DNA from: Escherichia coli
Lineage (GTDB): Bacteria > Pseudomonadota > Gammaproteobacteria > Enterobacterales > Enterobacteriaceae
Strand: one strand, 5' to 3'
Assembly: GCF_017348835.2 (NCBI RefSeq)
Contig: NZ_CP071375.1
Length of the DNA: 64,000 nt
The notes under the pieces: generated by a model
What the model saw: the letters and a program-made list of their open reading frames with translations, nothing else
What the model was told of the DNA's origin: nothing
Databases searched by the model: none
Made by a program: the position numbers and the translations under genes
Shown here: positions 1 to 5,616 of the stretch, one piece after another
Position numbering within the stretch: position 1 is the first letter of the stretch
Layout: every line of letters starts with the position of its first letter

Positions 1-864
1 TGTTTGCGCGAAAACAGCATTGCCCATTTTCTTACCGGAAATATCCACTACCGCTTTCAGCACCTGATTGTTTTCCAGCTCCTGAGCAATTTCGGTTGTC
101 ATATCCGAACCGAAAACAGCAATTTTTCCGGCCTGATTTTGATTACGTACCGCTTTTACCGCGCCGAGTGTCGCACCGCCCGACTCCCCCATAATGGCGT
201 TGAGATCCGGCGTGGAGATAATCAGTTTTTCACCAACGGAAATCGCTTTATCTAAAACAGTCCCTTCCTGATTAGCGACAATTTGCGCGCCGGGAACGCG
301 GGATTTTAATACTTCTTCAAATCCTTTACGTCGCTGCACACAAACTTCAAAGGCTTCGCAATTGATGACGGCAATTTTTGGCTGGTCAATTTTATTGGCA
401 ATAAAATAATCGGCGGCAGCGTTACCCAGTTTTTTACCAAATTCCAGCGGGTCACCCACCAGATATGCCGAGACATATTTATCGACGCCCTTTTGATTAA
501 TACAGGTGTTGTAGCAAATCACCGGAATACCCGCTTCACTGGCGCGACGAACGGTACGGCTACTGCCATTTTCAGACACTGCCGATAAAATAATGGCATC
601 GACATTACGCGCCACGAGGGTATCAACAAAGGTACTTTCTTTCGAAATATCACCCTGGGCGTTAGTTTCAATTAACTGTACCTGTACTGAAGAATCTTTT
701 GCCGCATCCTGAACGCCCTGACGCACTCCAGCGTAATATCCCTGAGTATCAAGGTATATTGCGCCAATGGTCATTTCTTTTTCCGCAGCCCTGGCAAATA
801 AAGCGCTACCTAATAGCGTAGCCATTAATAATAGATTACGGGTTGTTCTCATTTTTTTAGGCAT
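1..864 (-). CDS. yphF: Sugar ABC transporter periplasmic binding protein, N-terminal part (3' end lies outside window)
   Basis: Reverse strand translates MPKKMRTTRNLLLMATLLGSALFARAAEKEMTIGAIYLDTQGYYAGV..., a signal peptide plus periplasmic-binding fold; AGGAGG precedes the ATG at 864 by only 4 nt, alternative ATG at 852; frame stays open to position 1. Confidence 0.75.
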   Translation of the reverse strand, partial: MPKKMRTTRNLLLMATLLGSALFARAAEKEMTIGAIYLDTQGYYAGVRQGVQDAAKDSSVQVQLIETNAQGDISKESTFVDTLVARNVDAIILSAVSENGSSRTVRRASEAGIPVICYNTCINQKGVDKYVSAYLVGDPLEFGKKLGNAAADYFIANKIDQPKIAVINCEAFEVCVQRRKGFEEVLKSRVPGAQIVANQEGTVLDKAISVGEKLIISTPDLNAIMGESGGATLGAVKAVRNQNQAGKIAVFGSDMTTEIAQELENNQVLKAVVDISGKKMGNAVFAQT

Positions 865-960
865 AGAGCCTCCTGTAGGGTTTTTATTAACAACGGCTTA
901 TTCTAATTATTTTGTGATGAGCGGCAGCGCGTGCCGCTCAAATATTACAGTTAATAGGGT

Positions 961-3900
961 TTAGTGAACGTAGTTAAAAATAAAAGGCATCACAGTGGTG
1001 AATAATGCCGCTTTCGGCCAGGCCGGATTAATCGCCGTCAATTCAGCGCGAGCAGACTCATATTGCGCAACCTCCCCGAGTCCCGCGGACGCCAGCATCG
1101 CCACCATCAGGCATTTTTCTTTATGCTGCTGTTGTAAATCGCCATACAGCGACAACAAGTCAGGTTGCGAGACGGCAAAGAAATCCGCTTCGATACTGGT
1201 TTTCGCCATCTCTTGCGCCCACTGTTTCATTTCACTAAACAGTTGCTGTGCGATTTGTTGTTCGCCCAGCAGTCGCAGCGCCATTCCTTGCCAGAAGAGA
1301 TAATCAACCGGCTGATCGTTGTAATAACTGTGAATGTTAATGGTGCGATCGCCAGTCGCCGCCAGACGTAAAAAACGCGTCGCTTCAGTTTCATCGCCCT
1401 GCGCGTTGGCGCATATCGCCTGCCAGAACCAGATGTCGTTATCAGTTTGCCCCGGTAAACGGCCTTCGCTTAAATTCTCCGGATAATGCAGCGCGGCATG
1501 AAGCAGTTCGCTGGCCTGCTGCGGCTGTCTGGCATCAAGATGCTGCCAGGCGCGTAATAACTGGTTGAGGATAAACTGACTGGTGACCTTCCCTTCCCCG
1601 CCTTCCCACGGGTGGAATTTGCGCGTGGCGAGAATGTCCGCCGCTTTGTCTGCCTGCCCCGTGAGATGCCACAAATTGAGCAGTTCTGCGGTCATGTCGT
1701 CGCGTTTCAGCGCAATTTCCAGATTATTTTCCAGACGCGCCAGTCGTTTCTCCGGTGTGGCTCCACTTAACTTATCAAGCAAATCCCGTTCGAAAAGCAG
1801 ACGTGCATCCTGCGGCGCAAGCTGATAAGCATTATCAAGATAACGCGCGGCCAGCTCATAATCGTGTTGCTTATTCCACGCATGGATCGCTAACCCGCGC
1901 CAGCCGTCGGCAAACTCCGGCGACATCTCTACGCAACGTTGCCATAAGGCAATGGCTTTGTTGTAGCTACGTTTGTTGTAGTAGAAGCAGGCCAGTAAAT
2001 GGCGAGCAAACCAGCACTCTTCAATCCTCTCCAGCGCCGCCACTTCTTCCAGCGTATTCGGGAAACGGACAAACTGCGGGAAGACATCAATGGCTTTTGC
2101 GACCAGTTCGCCACGTTCGGCTTTTGGCAGCAAGCTGGCTTGCAGGTAAAGCGGCAGCGTGCGCTGGCAGTCCAGTGCGTTCAGCATCTCTGCCGCCAGG
2201 GTGGGCATTCCCCAGTTAATCAGTTGCCCGGCGGTCATCAGGGCGTTAACGTCGCGTCCCTGACACAGACCGCGCCACTGCGCGAGAGCTGATTCGCTAC
2301 GACCATCGAACCAGTTCAGCCACCACAGAGTGGCGTTCAGCGGATAATCGCGCAGCAGTTTCTCGCGCTGCAAACGCGCGTTGTCCTGACGACCACTTAA
2401 CACCAGCAGCAGATTATGCAGGCAAAGCACTTCCTGATTGGTTGGGCAGGCGCGAAGACTTTGTTGGCAAAAATCCAGACCCGCGTCGAAGTTACCATTA
2501 CGCGCCGCCAGTCGTGCCAGACCATAATAGCCTCCGGCTTTACTGTTGCCGCTCCAGACCGCACGCCAGAAATCCTCTTCGGCTTGTTGATATTGTCCCT
2601 GACGTTCGTAAGCACTGGCGCGAATCAAACTGGCCTGTCCGCACTGCGGATTTTTGTTCAGCGCATGTGCGCGTTTCAGCGCCTGAGTGGCATACGCCAC
2701 CGCTTGCGGGAAATCTGCGCGGTTATACTCCAGCATCGCCAGCGCCAGATTACAGCGGTAATCCAGCGGATCCAGCGCCACGCCGCGCAGGTAGTAATCG
2801 AACGGTGAACGGCTAGCGTGATGATATTGCTCCAGATGCTGACCGATAAACCAGGCTTCATCTGTACTGGTAATGTCTTGTGCTGCCAGTGGCGCTTTGG
2901 CGACGTCCGGCAACGGCAACTCTTGCGGCTGATGTTCCTGATAACTCAGTACAATATTGCCGTCGGCATCGGAGAGCTCAATGGTCAGCCTTTCAGGATT
3001 GATACCTTGCAACACGCCCTGGATGGCGGTCGCAGGCATCAGTGCCACGGCATCATCAAGTAACGCGTTGCATTTGCCGATTTTGCGGATCGCCAGACGG
3101 TATCCGTTCAACGGAGAGATGGCATACAGCCCCCACTCAATCCCCCGCTCACTACGCTGGAGTTTGATTACCGCATCGCGGGAGGCGTTTTGCACCATGC
3201 CCAGAGAATGGTAAGGCAGGAAAAACTGCTCAAAACGCTTCTCTTCGTAAGCATCAAGCCAGGTAAAATCAGGCTGGTTATCGGCAAAAATACCGGTCAT
3301 CAGTTCGATATACGGGCCGTTATTATCAGTTAGGCTCTTATCCCACGCCTGGCCAAATTCACTGTGTCCCCAGCTCCACTGCTTTTTACCTGGCGCAATA
3401 TGGTGGTTGGCAACGTGTAGCAAACCACCATCTTCATCGTGACACCACGCGCCAACAAAATCGTACTGTGATTTTTCAGCCATATATGAGGTTGGAACGG
3501 GCACATTTTTATAGCGAGAAATGTCCACTCCAGCGGAGTAGTCCACTTTGTAGTAAGTGCCGGTGGCGATGGGGAAAGCGGAGACGGCCCGTTTGCCGTG
3601 ATCAAACACCGCAGTCACATCCGGCGGGAAAACGCTCTGATGCCCTTCACCCCCTTTCACTGCCGGGTTGGCCCACCACAAGAAATGACGCGGCGTGGCG
3701 TTGCCGTTATAGACGCGGCTGGCGATTTCCAACGCCGCCCGTTCAGGACGCAGTGTGAAACCTGTCATCACCTGTAAACCGTGCATCGGCTCCGTTTCGC
3801 CGACCCACACCGTCTGTGCGCCGTCTTCATGGGCTTCGAGGGTGAAATCAACGGGCATAAAGGTGGTCGGGCGATGGTGTTGCGGCCAGTTAAACTCAAT

Positions 3901-4335
3901 CCCGCCAGAGATCCACGGTCCCAGCAGCCCCACCAGCGCAGGTTTAATGACTTCATTGTGATAGACAAAATCGCGTTGTTTCACTTTATCCCATGCGCGA
4001 TGCACCCGACCGCCCAGTTCCGGCAGGATCATCACTTTGATGTAGTCGTTTTCCAGCCACACCGTCTGCCAGGATTTCAGGGTTTTCTGCTCGCTCAGCG
4101 TATCGGTCACGCCGTAGGGATAAACCGCGCCGGACGATCCCTGATAAACGCGATTTTCCAGGAACATGGGATGTATATCCTGCGGCCCGGTTTCATAGGT
4201 CGGGATCTCAACGCGCTCTTGCCACACTTTTACTGGAGTCATGGTGCCCTCAATATTAACAAGACATACTGAATTAAAAGATTTGTGGCAGTGTATTGAA
4301 CAATCTGGCAATGTTTTCGCGGAATAATCACGCAA
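961..4335 (-). CDS. yphG: Large TPR-repeat/DUF-containing protein YphG (1124 aa)
   Basis: Longest ORF in track; an in-frame ATG at 4242 (MTPVKVWQ...) is preceded by GAGGG and may be the true start. Confidence 0.85.
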   Translation of the reverse strand: MRDYSAKTLPDCSIHCHKSFNSVCLVNIEGTMTPVKVWQERVEIPTYETGPQDIHPMFLENRVYQGSSGAVYPYGVTDTLSEQKTLKSWQTVWLENDYIKVMILPELGGRVHRAWDKVKQRDFVYHNEVIKPALVGLLGPWISGGIEFNWPQHHRPTTFMPVDFTLEAHEDGAQTVWVGETEPMHGLQVMTGFTLRPERAALEIASRVYNGNATPRHFLWWANPAVKGGEGHQSVFPPDVTAVFDHGKRAVSAFPIATGTYYKVDYSAGVDISRYKNVPVPTSYMAEKSQYDFVGAWCHDEDGGLLHVANHHIAPGKKQWSWGHSEFGQAWDKSLTDNNGPYIELMTGIFADNQPDFTWLDAYEEKRFEQFFLPYHSLGMVQNASRDAVIKLQRSERGIEWGLYAISPLNGYRLAIRKIGKCNALLDDAVALMPATAIQGVLQGINPERLTIELSDADGNIVLSYQEHQPQELPLPDVAKAPLAAQDITSTDEAWFIGQHLEQYHHASRSPFDYYLRGVALDPLDYRCNLALAMLEYNRADFPQAVAYATQALKRAHALNKNPQCGQASLIRASAYERQGQYQQAEEDFWRAVWSGNSKAGGYYGLARLAARNGNFDAGLDFCQQSLRACPTNQEVLCLHNLLLVLSGRQDNARLQREKLLRDYPLNATLWWLNWFDGRSESALAQWRGLCQGRDVNALMTAGQLINWGMPTLAAEMLNALDCQRTLPLYLQASLLPKAERGELVAKAIDVFPQFVRFPNTLEEVAALERIEECWFARHLLACFYYNKRSYNKAIALWQRCVEMSPEFADGWRGLAIHAWNKQHDYELAARYLDNAYQLAPQDARLLFERDLLDKLSGATPEKRLARLENNLEIALKRDDMTAELLNLWHLTGQADKAADILATRKFHPWEGGEGKVTSQFILNQLLRAWQHLDARQPQQASELLHAALHYPENLSEGRLPGQTDNDIWFWQAICANAQGDETEATRFLRLAATGDRTINIHSYYNDQPVDYLFWQGMALRLLGEQQIAQQLFSEMKQWAQEMAKTSIEADFFAVSQPDLLSLYGDLQQQHKEKCLMVAMLASAGLGEVAQYESARAELTAINPAWPKAALFTTVMPFIFNYVH

Positions 4336-4353
4336 TTAACTAAACAAGGTTTA

Positions 4354-5553
4354 GTGAAGATGAGAGCCTGCATTAACAATCAACAGATTCGCCACCATAA
4401 CAAATGCGTGATTCTGGAACTGCTGTACCGGCAAAAGCGCGCCAATAAATCAACGCTGGCCCGGCTGGCGCAAATTTCGATTCCGGCAGTCAGTAATATT
4501 TTGCAGGAACTGGAAAGCGAAAAACGGGTGGTGAATATCGACGATGAAAGCCAGACGCGCGGGCATAGTAGCGGTACATGGCTGATTGCGCCGGAAGGTG
4601 ACTGGACGCTGTGTCTGAACGTGACGCCCACCAGTATTGAGTGTCAGGTTGCTAATACTTGTTTAAGTCCGAAAGGTGAATTTGAGTATTTACAGATTGA
4701 TGCACCGACGCCGCAGGCGCTGCTGTCCGAAATCGAAAAATGCTGGCATCGCCACCGTGAATTGTGGCCGGACCGCACCATCAATCTGGCGCTGGCAATC
4801 CACGGTCAGGTTGATCCTGTGACCGGAGTGTCGCAAACCATGCCGCAAGCGCCCTGGACAACGCCGGTTGAGGTGAAGTATCTGCTGGAAGAGAAGCTCG
4901 GCATTCGGGTGATGGTCGATAATGACTGCGTGATGCTGGCGCTGGCGGAGAAATGGCAAAATAATTCGCAGGAACGGGATTTCTGCGTGATCAACGTTGA
5001 TTACGGCATTGGCTCGTCGTTCGTGATTAACGAGCAAATTTATCGCGGCAGTTTGTATGGTAGCGGACAGATTGGTCACACCATCGTTAATCCGGATGGC
5101 GTCGTCTGCGACTGTGGACGTTATGGCTGCCTGGAAACCGTCGCCTCGTTAAGCGCATTAAAAAAACAGGCGCGGGTATGGCTAAAATCACAACCGGTTA
5201 GTACTCAACTTGATCCTGAAAAACTGACTACAGCGCAGTTAATCGCTGCCTGGCAGAGTGGAGAACCGTGGATCACCAGCTGGGTTGACCGCAGTGCCAA
5301 TGCCATTGGTTTGAGTCTGTATAACTTCCTCAACATCCTCAATATTAATCAGATTTGGTTGTACGGTCGCAGTTGTGCCTTTGGTGAGAACTGGCTTAAT
5401 ACTATTATTCGCCAGACAGGATTTAACCCGTTCGACCGCGACGAAGGACCGAGCGTGAAAGCGACGCAAATTGGCTTCGGGCAATTAAGCCGCGCACAAC
5501 AGGTGCTGGGAATTGGCTATTTGTATGTTGAGGCGCAGTTACGACAGATTTGA
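4354..5553 (+). CDS. yphH: ROK (NagC/Mlc-like) family transcriptional regulator
   Basis: N-terminal HTH (KSTLARLAQISIPAVSNILQELE) and ROK sugar-kinase-like body with CDCGRYGCLE zinc motif; start may be ATG at 4360. Confidence 0.85.
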   Translation: MKMRACINNQQIRHHNKCVILELLYRQKRANKSTLARLAQISIPAVSNILQELESEKRVVNIDDESQTRGHSSGTWLIAPEGDWTLCLNVTPTSIECQVANTCLSPKGEFEYLQIDAPTPQALLSEIEKCWHRHRELWPDRTINLALAIHGQVDPVTGVSQTMPQAPWTTPVEVKYLLEEKLGIRVMVDNDCVMLALAEKWQNNSQERDFCVINVDYGIGSSFVINEQIYRGSLYGSGQIGHTIVNPDGVVCDCGRYGCLETVASLSALKKQARVWLKSQPVSTQLDPEKLTTAQLIAAWQSGEPWITSWVDRSANAIGLSLYNFLNILNINQIWLYGRSCAFGENWLNTIIRQTGFNPFDRDEGPSVKATQIGFGQLSRAQQVLGIGYLYVEAQLRQI

Positions 5554-5616
5554 TGGCGCGATAACGTAGAAAGGCTTCCCGAAGGAAGCCTTTTTTCAAC
5601 AGATTAACCGTTTCGC

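What the first reader, a model, noticed from the sequence alone, without database searches (positions are those of the whole stretch)
4242..4360. Divergent yphG and yphH start codons only about 18 bp apart
With the longest ORFs, yphG starts at 4335 and yphH at 4354, leaving no room for two promoters and two ribosome-binding sites. An in-frame ATG at 4242 (MTPVKVWQ...) is preceded by GAGGG at good spacing, which would restore about 110 bp of intergenic sequence. Either the yphG start is over-extended, or the two genes have overlapping back-to-back control regions.
Basis: seen in the sequence. Interest (0 to 1): 0.2.

Follow-up and report, generated by a model that had tools for sequence, protein, structure and literature searches.

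The report
Over-extended yphG ORF; ordinary divergent promoter region
The 18-bp gap between yphG and yphH appears only if the longest possible ORFs are taken; the real starts (ATG 4242 and ATG 4360, as already annotated in RefSeq) leave an ordinary 117-bp divergent control region, which appears to hold a conserved binding site for the uncharacterised regulator YphH.

Summary
The sequence facts are right. The longest yphG ORF starts at TTG 4335, the longest yphH ORF at GTG 4354, and 18 bp lie between them. Neither is the real start.

RefSeq (K-12 NP_417044.4 and PGAP genomes) already starts yphG at ATG 4242 (1093 aa) and yphH at ATG 4360, giving a 117-bp spacer.

Evidence that the 31-codon extension is non-coding:
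- No homologue conserves it; conservation begins at VKVW, three residues after M32.
- In 20 orthologous loci the ATG and its Shine-Dalgarno are always present.
- 15 of those loci have an in-frame stop within 90 nt upstream, and a 16th has its stop at the TTG position with no alternative start.
- One relative keeps the DNA but shifts the frame.
- Variable sites show no codon periodicity (13/14/10, against 11/7/35 in yphG and 9/9/46 in yphH).

TTG 4335 lies inside a nearly invariant non-coding motif, TCACGCAAT.

The divergent ROK-regulator/DUF5107 pair keeps a 109-119-bp spacer across Enterobacterales and Aeromonas. The spacer contains a -10-like TAnAnT for yphG and a 21-bp quasi-palindrome next to the yphH ATG. 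The only other strong copy of that palindrome in 64 kb lies at the yphG/yphF junction (948-968). I read it as a candidate YphH operator; this is inference.

The finding itself is ordinary and already resolved in current annotation.

The parts
961..4242 (-). yphG coding sequence (1093 aa, DUF5107 N-terminal domain plus TPR repeats), true start ATG 4240-4242
   Evidence: RefSeq K-12 NP_417044.4 and PGAP WP_153645545.1 map to these coordinates. Pfam DUF5107 scores 187.8 bits against a cutoff of 24.4. The 1093-aa form is on at least 1000 contigs and carries the name YPHG_ECOLI.
4243..4335 (-). Spurious 31-codon N-terminal extension of the longest ORF (TTG 4335); non-coding
   Evidence: No homologue conserves it. 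In-frame stops, or no start codon, occur in orthologues, and Enterobacter sp. BIGb0383 has a 1-nt indel. Variable sites by codon position are 13/14/10 of 31. The 1124-aa form was seen in a single record, EFI89599.1.
4247..4251 (-). Shine-Dalgarno GAGGG of yphG, 4 nt before ATG 4242
   Evidence: Read directly from the sequence. A GAGG/GGAG motif is present before the equivalent ATG in most of the 20 orthologous loci.
4360..5553 (+). yphH coding sequence (397 aa, ROK-family regulator), true start ATG 4360
   Evidence: RefSeq annotation. The ATG is kept in 19 of 20 orthologues, whereas the GTG at 4354 is in frame only in E. coli and E. albertii, and several relatives have a stop 1-6 codons upstream of the ATG. 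Pfam ROK scores 113.9 bits.
4243..4359 (.). 117-bp divergent yphG-yphH control region
   Evidence: The spacer is 109-119 bp in 20 orthologous loci, and 114-119 bp in 18 of them. Conserved blocks are seen in alignment A2. The 201-bp stretch around it is at least 99% identical in 5393 of 5424 E. coli genomes.
4290..4295 (-). Candidate -10 hexamer of the yphG promoter (TACACT on the minus strand); inferred transcription start near 4283-4286
   Evidence: In alignment A2 the hexamer reads (T/C)A-n-A-(C/A)-T. The A at -11 and the T at -7 are invariant in 20 of 20 sequences, and the A at -9 is kept in 19 of 20. The assignment is inference: the consensus scan found no full promoter.
4328..4336 (.). 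Nearly invariant non-coding motif TCACGCAAT, which contains the TTG 4335 codon
   Evidence: Invariant or at least 90% conserved columns in A2. ATCACG is also kept next to the palindrome in Photobacterium indicum, which has no adjacent yphH. Function unknown.
4338..4358 (+). Candidate operator O1: 21-bp quasi-palindrome AACTAAACAAGGTTTAGTGAA, ending 1 nt before the yphH ATG. The inverted-repeat arms run a little wider, 4336-4345 and 4349-4358.
   Evidence: Inverted repeat of 10-nt arms, 90% complementary. Conserved in all 20 loci, consensus CAGTAAACGGGGTTTAGTGAA. Scores 28.5 bits with the full PWM and 19.3 bits with a PWM built without the E. coli clade.
4253..4273 (+). Weak direct copy of the same motif (TATTAACAAGACATACTGAA), 85 bp from O1, between the yphG Shine-Dalgarno and the candidate -10
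   Evidence: Direct repeat D1, 16 nt, 75% identity, spacing 85. In the Enterobacter sp. Ag1/Cedecea/Citrobacter sp. FP75 clade, Citrobacter werkmanii/youngae, Hafnia and the Aeromonas group, the best other PWM hit is on the same strand at a constant 84-85 bp; per-species p is 0.003-0.073, and at most 0.05 in 9 of these 10 loci. In E. coli itself the score is weak (-1.1 bits).
948..968 (+). Candidate operator O2: CAGTTAATAGGGTTTAGTGAA, overlapping the yphG stop codon (961-963), about 85 bp upstream of the yphF start (about 864)
   Evidence: The only other strong PWM hit in the 64-kb window: 29.6 bits, or 28.6 bits with a PWM that excludes the E. coli clade. The highest score in 200 shuffles was 21.0, mean 12.2. 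Conserved at the same place in E. albertii (26.8 bits) and Enterobacter sp. R1 (24.3 bits). No further site in 20 kb of K-12.

Best explanation
The 18-bp gap is an artefact of taking the longest ORF on each strand.

Shown:
- yphG is translated from ATG 4242, with Shine-Dalgarno GAGGG, and yphH from ATG 4360.
- The 93 nt between 4243 and 4335 are non-coding regulatory DNA.
- The two genes are a divergently transcribed pair: a ROK-family regulator and its neighbouring sugar-utilisation genes, separated by a 117-bp spacer whose length is conserved across genera.

Inferred:
- The yphG promoter has its -10 at 4290-4295 on the minus strand. Transcription would then start near 4283, so the TTG codons at 4311 and 4335 would not be in the mRNA.
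- A 21-bp quasi-palindrome abutting the yphH ATG (4338-4358), and a second strong copy at the yphG/yphF junction (948-968), are operators for YphH.
- YphH would thereby autoregulate and control yphG and yphFEDCB.
- It may act cooperatively with a weak copy 85 bp away (4253-4273), in the way NagC loops DNA between the nagE and nagB operators.
For: Annotation:
- K-12 MG1655 (NP_417044.4, 3282 nt) and a PGAP genome both place yphG at window 961-4242 and yphH at 4360-5553.
- The 1093-aa form is on at least 1000 contigs and is YPHG_ECOLI. The 1124-aa form was seen in one record.

Protein level:
- In a search with the first 300 residues of the long form, the 100%-identical hit covers only 90% of the query, that is, it starts at MTPVKVWQ, and only a few hits, which carry unrelated N-terminal extensions, reach 91-92%.
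- In alignment A1 conservation begins at V35, and most homologues start 1-4 residues before it.

DNA level:
- All 20 orthologous loci have an ATG at, or one codon from, the 4242 position; most are preceded by a clear GAGG/GGAG Shine-Dalgarno.
- In-frame stops lie 9-90 nt upstream in 15 of them. Enterobacter sp. R1 has its stop at the TTG position and no alternative start codon.
- Enterobacter sp. BIGb0383 keeps the nucleotides CAGTATGTCTTGTTAATATTGAGGGC but has a 1-nt indel that shifts the frame.
- Variable sites by codon position are 13/14/10 in the extension, against 11/7/35 in yphG and 9/9/46 in yphH.

Architecture:
- The divergent yphH is present in 20 loci with a 109-119-bp spacer.
- Conserved blocks and the -10-like pattern are in A2.

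Operator:
- Palindrome.
- Two strong PWM hits only in 64 kb, with 948-968 at 28.6 bits against a shuffle maximum of 21.0.
- The motif with its ATCACG flank persists upstream of yphG in Photobacterium, where no yphH gene follows it.
- No RNA covariation.
- YphH is a ROK protein with an N-terminal winged-helix-like segment, described as the third, uncharacterised ROK repressor of E. coli (PMC4288165).
Against: - I found no experimental initiation or transcription-start data for these poorly expressed genes.
- The consensus sigma-70 scan finds no full promoter in 4000-4600. No good -35 exists for the proposed -10, so the promoter assignment is weak and may need an activator.
- The weak motif copy at 4253-4273 scores below zero in E. 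coli itself.
- Nothing here shows that YphH, rather than another factor, binds the palindrome.
- The centre of the motif (GGAG/AAGG) doubles as the yphH Shine-Dalgarno, which inflates its conservation at that locus.
- The 20 loci are phylogenetically related, so counts of species overstate independent support.
Confidence: 0.93

Rival explanations
1. The long form is real: YphG is made as a 1124-aa protein from TTG 4335, and the two genes have start codons 18-24 bp apart with fully overlapping control regions.
For: The frame is open from 4335 in E. coli and E. albertii. One GenBank record (EFI89599.1) annotates the 1124-aa form.
Against: - There is no Shine-Dalgarno before TTG 4335, and the codon directly before it is a stop.
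- The extension is not conserved in any homologue.
- Close relatives have stops or a frameshift in it, and it shows no codon periodicity.
- The TTG lies inside a nearly invariant DNA motif that is conserved whatever the frame.
- An open 31-codon run has about a 0.15 chance probability.
Confidence: 0.01
2. Dual initiation: ATG 4242 is the main start, but a minor longer proteoform is made from TTG 4311 or 4335 on a transcript that starts further upstream, for example read-through antisense to yphH.
For: In-frame TTG codons exist at -69 and -93 in E. coli. Alternative N-terminal proteoforms are documented in E. coli in general (titles found).
Against: - The TTG at -69 is GTG in E. albertii and absent in Enterobacter sp. 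R1 and ENT03.
- Neither codon has a Shine-Dalgarno.
- There is no selection on the frame.
- If the inferred -10 at 4290-4295 is right, both codons lie outside the mRNA.
Confidence: 0.02
3. The conserved 21-bp block before the yphH ATG acts as RNA: a 5'-UTR hairpin that masks the yphH ribosome-binding site. It would not be a DNA operator.
For: The arms 4336-4345 and 4349-4358 can pair, and the loop and right arm flank the AAGG Shine-Dalgarno. The block lies where the yphH leader should be.
Against: - There is no covariation: 71% of cells are paired, equal to the shuffled mean of 70.9%, and the central pair is unpaired in 17 of 20 sequences.
- No Rfam family matches.
- The same motif recurs at 948-968, where both flanking genes are on the other strand.
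- It also recurs upstream of yphG in Photobacterium, with no yphH downstream.
Confidence: 0.07
4. The palindrome is a real DNA site, but a factor other than YphH binds it, for example another sugar regulator or a nucleoid protein.
For: In Photobacterium indicum the site is present without an adjacent yphH. No binding data exist.
Against: - In 20 of the 21 loci whose upstream flank was complete, the site sits next to a divergent yphH; Phytobacter, with a truncated flank, shows a partial yphH match as well.
- There are only two strong sites in 20 kb of K-12, both inside the yph cluster. That is the pattern of a local, cluster-specific regulator.
- The yphH gene could lie elsewhere in the Photobacterium genome; I did not test this.
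Confidence: 0.2

Closest known systems
Over-extended start codons from longest-ORF gene calling, as corrected in curated E. coli K-12 annotation
   Same: A rare start codon (TTG) lies directly after a stop and has no Shine-Dalgarno. A downstream ATG has a Shine-Dalgarno and matches the homologue N-termini. RefSeq already uses the short form.
   Different: Nothing. This is a textbook case.
nagE-nagBACD divergent control region with NagC, a ROK repressor (Plumbridge & Kolb 1993, as described in PMC4288165)
   Same: A ROK-family regulator is encoded next to sugar-utilisation genes. The divergent spacer is compact. One strong and one weak site lie about 8 helical turns apart, as where the weak nagE operator depends on cooperative binding with the strong nagB operator through a DNA loop.
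   Different: - The regulator gene is itself one arm of the divergent pair here.
- The candidate site has TAAAC...GTTTA half-sites, not the TT(N9)AA signature at positions +/-5,6 of NagC and Mlc sites.
- YphH scores far below the NagC and Mlc equivalog cutoffs and lacks their conserved GR linker motif (PMC4288165).
- Binding and looping are untested.
Divergent repressor/operon pairs with back-to-back promoters, such as tetR-tetA (from general knowledge)
   Same: A regulator gene and its target are transcribed divergently from a short shared spacer, with palindromic operators overlapping the promoters. This gives autoregulation.
   Different: The promoters here are non-consensus, and an additional operator-like site lies 3.4 kb away, before yphF.

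Membership tests
Genuine coding N-terminal extension (4243-4335 as part of yphG) | Residues conserved in orthologues | tested here: not met
   The hits identical or near-identical to the query cover at most 90% of the long query, and none aligns to the extension. Alignment A1 shows conservation from V35 only.
Genuine coding N-terminal extension (4243-4335 as part of yphG) | Reading frame open and in phase in related species | tested here: not met
   15 of 20 loci have an in-frame stop within 90 nt upstream, a 16th has its stop at the TTG position with no alternative start, and Enterobacter sp. BIGb0383 has a 1-nt indel.
Genuine coding N-terminal extension (4243-4335 as part of yphG) | Excess of third-position substitutions | tested here: not met
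   13/14/10 variable sites at codon positions 1/2/3, against 11/7/35 in yphG and 9/9/46 in yphH.
Genuine coding N-terminal extension (4243-4335 as part of yphG) | Ribosome-binding site before the proposed start | tested here: not met
   The sequence upstream of TTG 4335 on the minus strand is ACTAAACCTTGTTTAGTTAA, with no GGAG-like run. GAGGG precedes ATG 4242.
Genuine coding N-terminal extension (4243-4335 as part of yphG) | Experimental initiation signal or N-terminal peptide | not testable with these tools
   There are no entries for yphG or yphH in the supplements held.
ROK family (Pfam PF00480), for YphH | Score above the Pfam gathering cutoff | tested here: met
   113.9 bits against a cutoff of 22.9.
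NagC or Mlc (NCBIfam equivalogs), for YphH | Score above the equivalog cutoff | tested here: not met
   NagC 111.5 bits against 650; Mlc 109.1 bits against 530. YphH is a separate ROK branch (PMC4288165).
NagC/Mlc-type operator | Quasi-palindrome with TT at -6,-5 and AA at +5,+6 around the centre | tested here: not met
   With the centre at 4347, positions -6,-5 read TA and +5,+6 read TA. The half-sites are TAAAC/GTTTA.
NagC-like two-operator looping | Two sites in helical phase in the divergent spacer, with cooperative binding | tested here: inconclusive
   A second, weaker copy lies at a constant 84-85 bp in four clades, but its score in E. coli is weak. Binding is not testable here.
Sigma-70 promoter (for yphG) | -10 hexamer with A at -11 and T at -7, plus a -35 hexamer at 16-18 bp | tested here: inconclusive
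   A -10-like TAnAnT is conserved in 20 of 20 sequences, but there is no acceptable -35 and no hit in the consensus scan.
DUF5107 (Pfam PF17128), for YphG | Score above the gathering cutoff | tested here: met
   187.8 bits against a cutoff of 24.4, covering residues 70-354 of the long form.
Known structured RNA (Rfam) | Match at or near the gathering score | tested here: not met
   Only two chance-level matches (E about 0.5) in 700-4700, neither in the spacer.

The most novel reading that the evidence does not exclude
The 21-bp quasi-palindrome (consensus CAGTAAAC-N3/4-GTTTAGTG) at 4338-4358 and 948-968 is the so far undescribed operator of YphH, the third and uncharacterised ROK repressor of E. 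coli. Its half-sites differ from those of NagC and Mlc. It would define a small regulon (yphH, yphG, yphFEDCB), whose spacer length is held at about 117 bp by the need to phase a strong and a weak site for looping.
Probability: 0.5. Interest if true: 0.3.

Novelty: already known. Interest (0 to 1): 0.08.

Why it matters
As a start-codon question it does not matter much. The correct start is already in RefSeq, and the finding only shows why longest-ORF calls should not be trusted next to divergent genes.

The by-product is of modest value. It gives a concrete, testable operator prediction for YphH, one of the E. coli transcription factors still listed as of unknown function (PMC9308461, PMC4288165). 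It also gives a map of the yphG-yphH control region that could guide promoter-fusion, EMSA or ChIP-exo experiments on the yph sugar-utilisation cluster.

Tried and rejected
- **Experimental data.** I looked for initiation or transcription-start data for yphG and yphH. The Ribo-RET preprint has no supplements held. A dRNA-seq comparison, a 2026 N-terminomics paper, Cappable-seq and SMRT-Cappable-seq have no occurrences of the gene names or of coordinates in this range. Full-text searches for yphG and yphH found no functional study.
- **Consensus scan.** The sigma-70 and terminator scan of 4000-4600 gave 0 sites.
- **Rfam.** Nothing matched in the spacer.
- **RNA hairpin at 4336-4358.** No covariation.
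- **CRP site around TCACG (4328-4332), by eye.** The left half-site would be TCGCG, which does not match. Rejected.
- **Sigma-54 promoter at TGGCAG-N4-TTGAA (4287-4301), by eye.** The spacing is one base short, GA replaces GC, and the GG is not conserved in A2. Rejected.
- **A 10-codon upstream ORF on the plus strand (ATG 4311, MFSRNNHAIN).** The ATG is CTG in E. albertii and absent in the others. Rejected as chance.
- **Pfam DUF5107 boundary.** The match starts at residue 70 of the long form, so it says nothing about the N-terminus.
- **My recollection that UniProt lists YphG as 1124 aa.** ties the name YPHG_ECOLI to the 1093-aa sequence, so I do not use it.
Full report
**What is in the sequence.** The window is E. 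coli chromosome. Reading left to right, the region holds yphG (minus strand), yphH (plus strand) and glyA (minus strand).

- The longest minus-strand ORF runs 961..4335 (1124 aa). Its first codon is TTG at 4335.
- The longest plus-strand ORF for yphH starts at GTG 4354.
- 18 bases lie between them.
- An in-frame ATG at 4242 (MTPVKVWQ) is preceded by GAGGG, with 4 nt in between.

Two details weaken the long form at once. The codon directly before TTG 4335 is the stop TAA, so this is simply the first possible start after a stop. No purine-rich ribosome-binding site precedes it either. With the local composition (36% G+C), a 31-codon run without a stop has a chance probability of about 0.15.

**What current annotation says.** In K-12 MG1655 (NC_000913.3) yphG is 2679464-2682745 (NP_417044.4, 3282 nt, 1093 aa) and yphH is 2682863-2684056. 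The PGAP-annotated strain closest to the window gives the same result. Both map to window ATG 4242 and ATG 4360, which leaves 117 bp between the genes. The spacer in the window is identical to K-12.

An exact look-up shows that the 1093-aa sequence is on at least 1000 contigs and carries the name YPHG_ECOLI. The 1124-aa sequence was seen on one contig of one record, EFI89599.1.

- I searched with the first 300 residues of the long form. The 100%-identical hit covers only 90% of the query, that is, it begins at MTPVKVWQ, and the relatives at 62-81% identity mostly cover 86-90%. Only a few hits with unrelated N-terminal extensions of their own reach 91-92%.
- In the alignment of 20 sequences, conservation starts at V35 (VKVW.E..(I/L)PT). 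Most homologues begin 1-4 residues before it. The few with longer N-termini have unrelated sequence there.

**DNA-level test in orthologous loci.** A scan of one genome per species returned 21 gammaproteobacterial loci: Escherichia, Enterobacter-like isolates, Budvicia, Rahnella, Citrobacter, Cedecea, Hafnia, Phytobacter, Aeromonas and Photobacterium.
- In the 20 loci other than the E. coli representative, an ATG sits at the 4242 position or one codon upstream of it; in most it is preceded by a clear GAGG/GGAG motif.
- In 15 of them an in-frame stop lies 9-90 nt upstream of that ATG.
- Enterobacter sp. R1 has its stop at the position of the E. coli TTG and no alternative start codon at all.
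- Enterobacter sp. BIGb0383 (YphG 94% identical) keeps the nucleotides CAGTATGTCTTGTTAATATTGAGGGC but has a 1-nt insertion next to the ATG. The DNA is conserved while the frame is not.
- Among the six closest species, variable sites fall 11/7/35 (of 50 each) on codon positions 1/2/3 in the first 150 nt of yphG, and 9/9/46 in yphH. In the 93-nt extension they fall 13/14/10 (of 31 each).

The extension is non-coding.

**The yphH start.** Here too the longest ORF over-reaches. The ATG at 4360 is kept in 19 of 20 orthologues, and one has GTG at that position. The GTG at 4354 is in frame only in E. coli and E. albertii. Several relatives have a stop 1-6 codons upstream of the ATG.

**What the 117 bp are.** A divergent yphH orthologue is present next to yphG in 20 loci, and a 21st, Phytobacter, whose upstream flank is truncated, shows a partial match. 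Taking the conserved starts, the spacer is 109-119 bp long, and 114-119 bp in 18 of the 20 (my assignment of starts in the relatives is inference). This holds even though the middle of the spacer is barely alignable between clades.

Alignment A2 shows three conserved blocks.

1. **Next to yphG.** The Shine-Dalgarno followed by T.AACAA..CATA(G/C)T.AA (about 4252-4274).

2. **In the middle.** GGCAGT.TA (4287-4295). On the minus strand this reads (T/C)A.A(C/A)T, with the A at -11 and the T at -7 invariant in 20 of 20 sequences. That is the conservation pattern of a sigma-70 -10 hexamer. I infer that it is the yphG -10 (4290-4295), with a transcription start near 4283-4286 and a leader of about 41 nt. 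On that reading TTG 4311 and TTG 4335 are not even transcribed with yphG. There is no acceptable -35, and the consensus scan finds nothing. The promoter is therefore weak or activator-dependent, and this step remains inference.

3. **A 40-bp block running up to the yphH ATG.** Its consensus is CGC.CAATG.TCACGCAATACAGTAAACGGGGTTTAGTGAA. The supposed start codon TTG 4335 is part of the nearly invariant TCACGCAAT (4328-4336).

**A candidate operator.** The last 21 bp of block 3 (4338-4358, AACTAAACAAGGTTTAGTGAA) form a quasi-palindrome. The arms are 4336-4345 and 4349-4358, 90% complementary, with a 3-nt spacer.

I built a weight matrix from this block in the 20 loci. It has exactly one other strong hit in the 64-kb window: 948-968, CAGTTAATAGGGTTTAGTGAA, at 29.6 bits. 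The next best hit scores 12.8 bits.

With a matrix built without the E. coli clade, the site at 948 scores 28.6 bits and the site at 4338 scores 19.3 bits. The best score in each of 200 shuffled windows averaged 12.2 and never exceeded 21.0.

The site at 948-968 overlaps the yphG stop codon and lies about 85 bp upstream of the yphF start. It is conserved at the same place in E. albertii (26.8 bits) and Enterobacter sp. R1 (24.3 bits). No further site occurs in 20 kb of K-12 from csiE to glyA.

In Photobacterium indicum there is no adjacent yphH. The palindrome with its ATCACG flank still sits about 90 bp upstream of yphG. The element therefore belongs to the yphG control region and not to a yphH leader.

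An RNA-hairpin reading gets no support. 71% of cells are paired, against 70.9% in shuffles, and the central pair is unpaired in 17 of 20 sequences. Rfam has no match.

**A possible second, weak site and looping.** A 16-nt direct repeat of the right part of the motif lies at 4258-4273, 85 bp from the strong site. I used leave-clade-out matrices to look for the best second hit in each spacer. It is on the same strand at a constant 84-85 bp in four groups:
- the Enterobacter sp. Ag1/Cedecea/Citrobacter sp. FP75 clade;
- Citrobacter werkmanii and C. youngae;
- Hafnia;
- the Aeromonas group.

Per-species p is 0.003-0.073, and at most 0.05 in 9 of these 10 loci. In the E. coli clade this copy is degenerate, at -1.1 bits.

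A strong and a weak site about eight helical turns apart in a divergent spacer is the arrangement described for NagC at nagE-nagB. There the weak nagE operator depends on cooperative binding and looping (PMC4288165). It would also explain why spacer length is conserved. This is a hypothesis, not a result.

**Comparison with known families.** YphH passes the Pfam ROK threshold (113.9 bits against 22.9). It is far below the NagC and Mlc equivalog thresholds (111.5 against 650, and 109.1 against 530). The literature held here calls it the third, uncharacterised ROK repressor of E. coli, on its own branch and lacking the GR linker motif (PMC4288165). It is still listed among the factors of unknown function (PMC9308461, PMC4797297).

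The candidate operator does not have the TT/AA signature at positions +/-5,6 that defines NagC and Mlc sites. Its half-sites are TAAAC/GTTTA. It may work like a ROK operator pair, but it is not a NagC/Mlc-type site.

**Verdict.** There is no unusual 18-bp control region. What is really there is an ordinary compact divergent regulator/operon spacer. The only new element is a computational prediction of the YphH operator and of a second copy before yphF. That is a new member of a well-known kind and needs a simple binding experiment.

My confidence that 4242 is the start and that the extension is non-coding is about 0.95 or more. My confidence that the palindrome is a protein-binding operator is about 0.7, that YphH is the protein about 0.5, and in the -10 assignment about 0.5.

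Noticed in passing
window 948-968 (K-12 2679451-2679471): A second strong copy of the 21-bp motif found upstream of yphH overlaps the yphG stop codon and lies about 85 bp before yphF. It is the only other hit above 13 bits in the 64-kb window, and it is conserved in E. albertii and Enterobacter sp. R1. This suggests an internal regulated promoter for yphFEDCB.
   Followed up: partly
window 976-1009 (minus strand) and 920-940: A terminator-like hairpin plus T-run (GGCATTATTCACCACTGTGATGCC TTTTATTTTT) lies inside the last ~15 codons of yphG. A separate G+C-rich inverted repeat (GAGCGGCAGCGCGTGCCGCTC) lies in the yphG-yphF spacer. Either could separate the yphG and yphF transcripts.
   Followed up: no
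window 5554-5616 compared with L002 9058-9254: The yphH-glyA spacer is 63 bp in the window strain and in strain PE164 but 197 bp in K-12. K-12 carries REP/BIME-like palindromic units there (GCCTGATGCGCTACGCTTATCAGGCC ... GTAGGCCGGATAAGGCG...). This is an ordinary REP insertion polymorphism.
   Followed up: partly
yphG N-terminal domain, window 3343-4242; loci L028-L086: The first 300 residues of YphG are 62-68% identical to proteins of Bacteroidota (Prevotella, Flavobacterium, Mucilaginibacter) and Bacillota (Paenibacillus, Butyrivibrio, Ruminiclostridium). That is unusually high cross-phylum conservation for a domain of unknown function, with long invariant runs such as KPALVGL.GPWI.GGIEFNWPQHHRP. 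It points to a strongly constrained enzyme or to lateral transfer.
   Followed up: no
L003, L005, L006 and L025 (neighbours of yphG orthologues): Outside Escherichia the genes downstream of yphG differ: an aldose epimerase plus an MFS sugar transporter, or a periplasmic sugar-binding protein. In Photobacterium the upstream genes are an N-acylglucosamine-2-epimerase-like protein and a cupin, in place of yphH. DUF5107 is consistently embedded in sugar-utilisation clusters.
   Followed up: no
window 4320-4336: CGGAAT and CGCAAT form a direct repeat 11 bp apart (consensus CGC.CAAT ... CACGCAAT in other genera), just left of the palindrome. The second copy is nearly invariant. I have no explanation; it could be part of the yphH promoter or a site for a second factor.
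   Followed up: no
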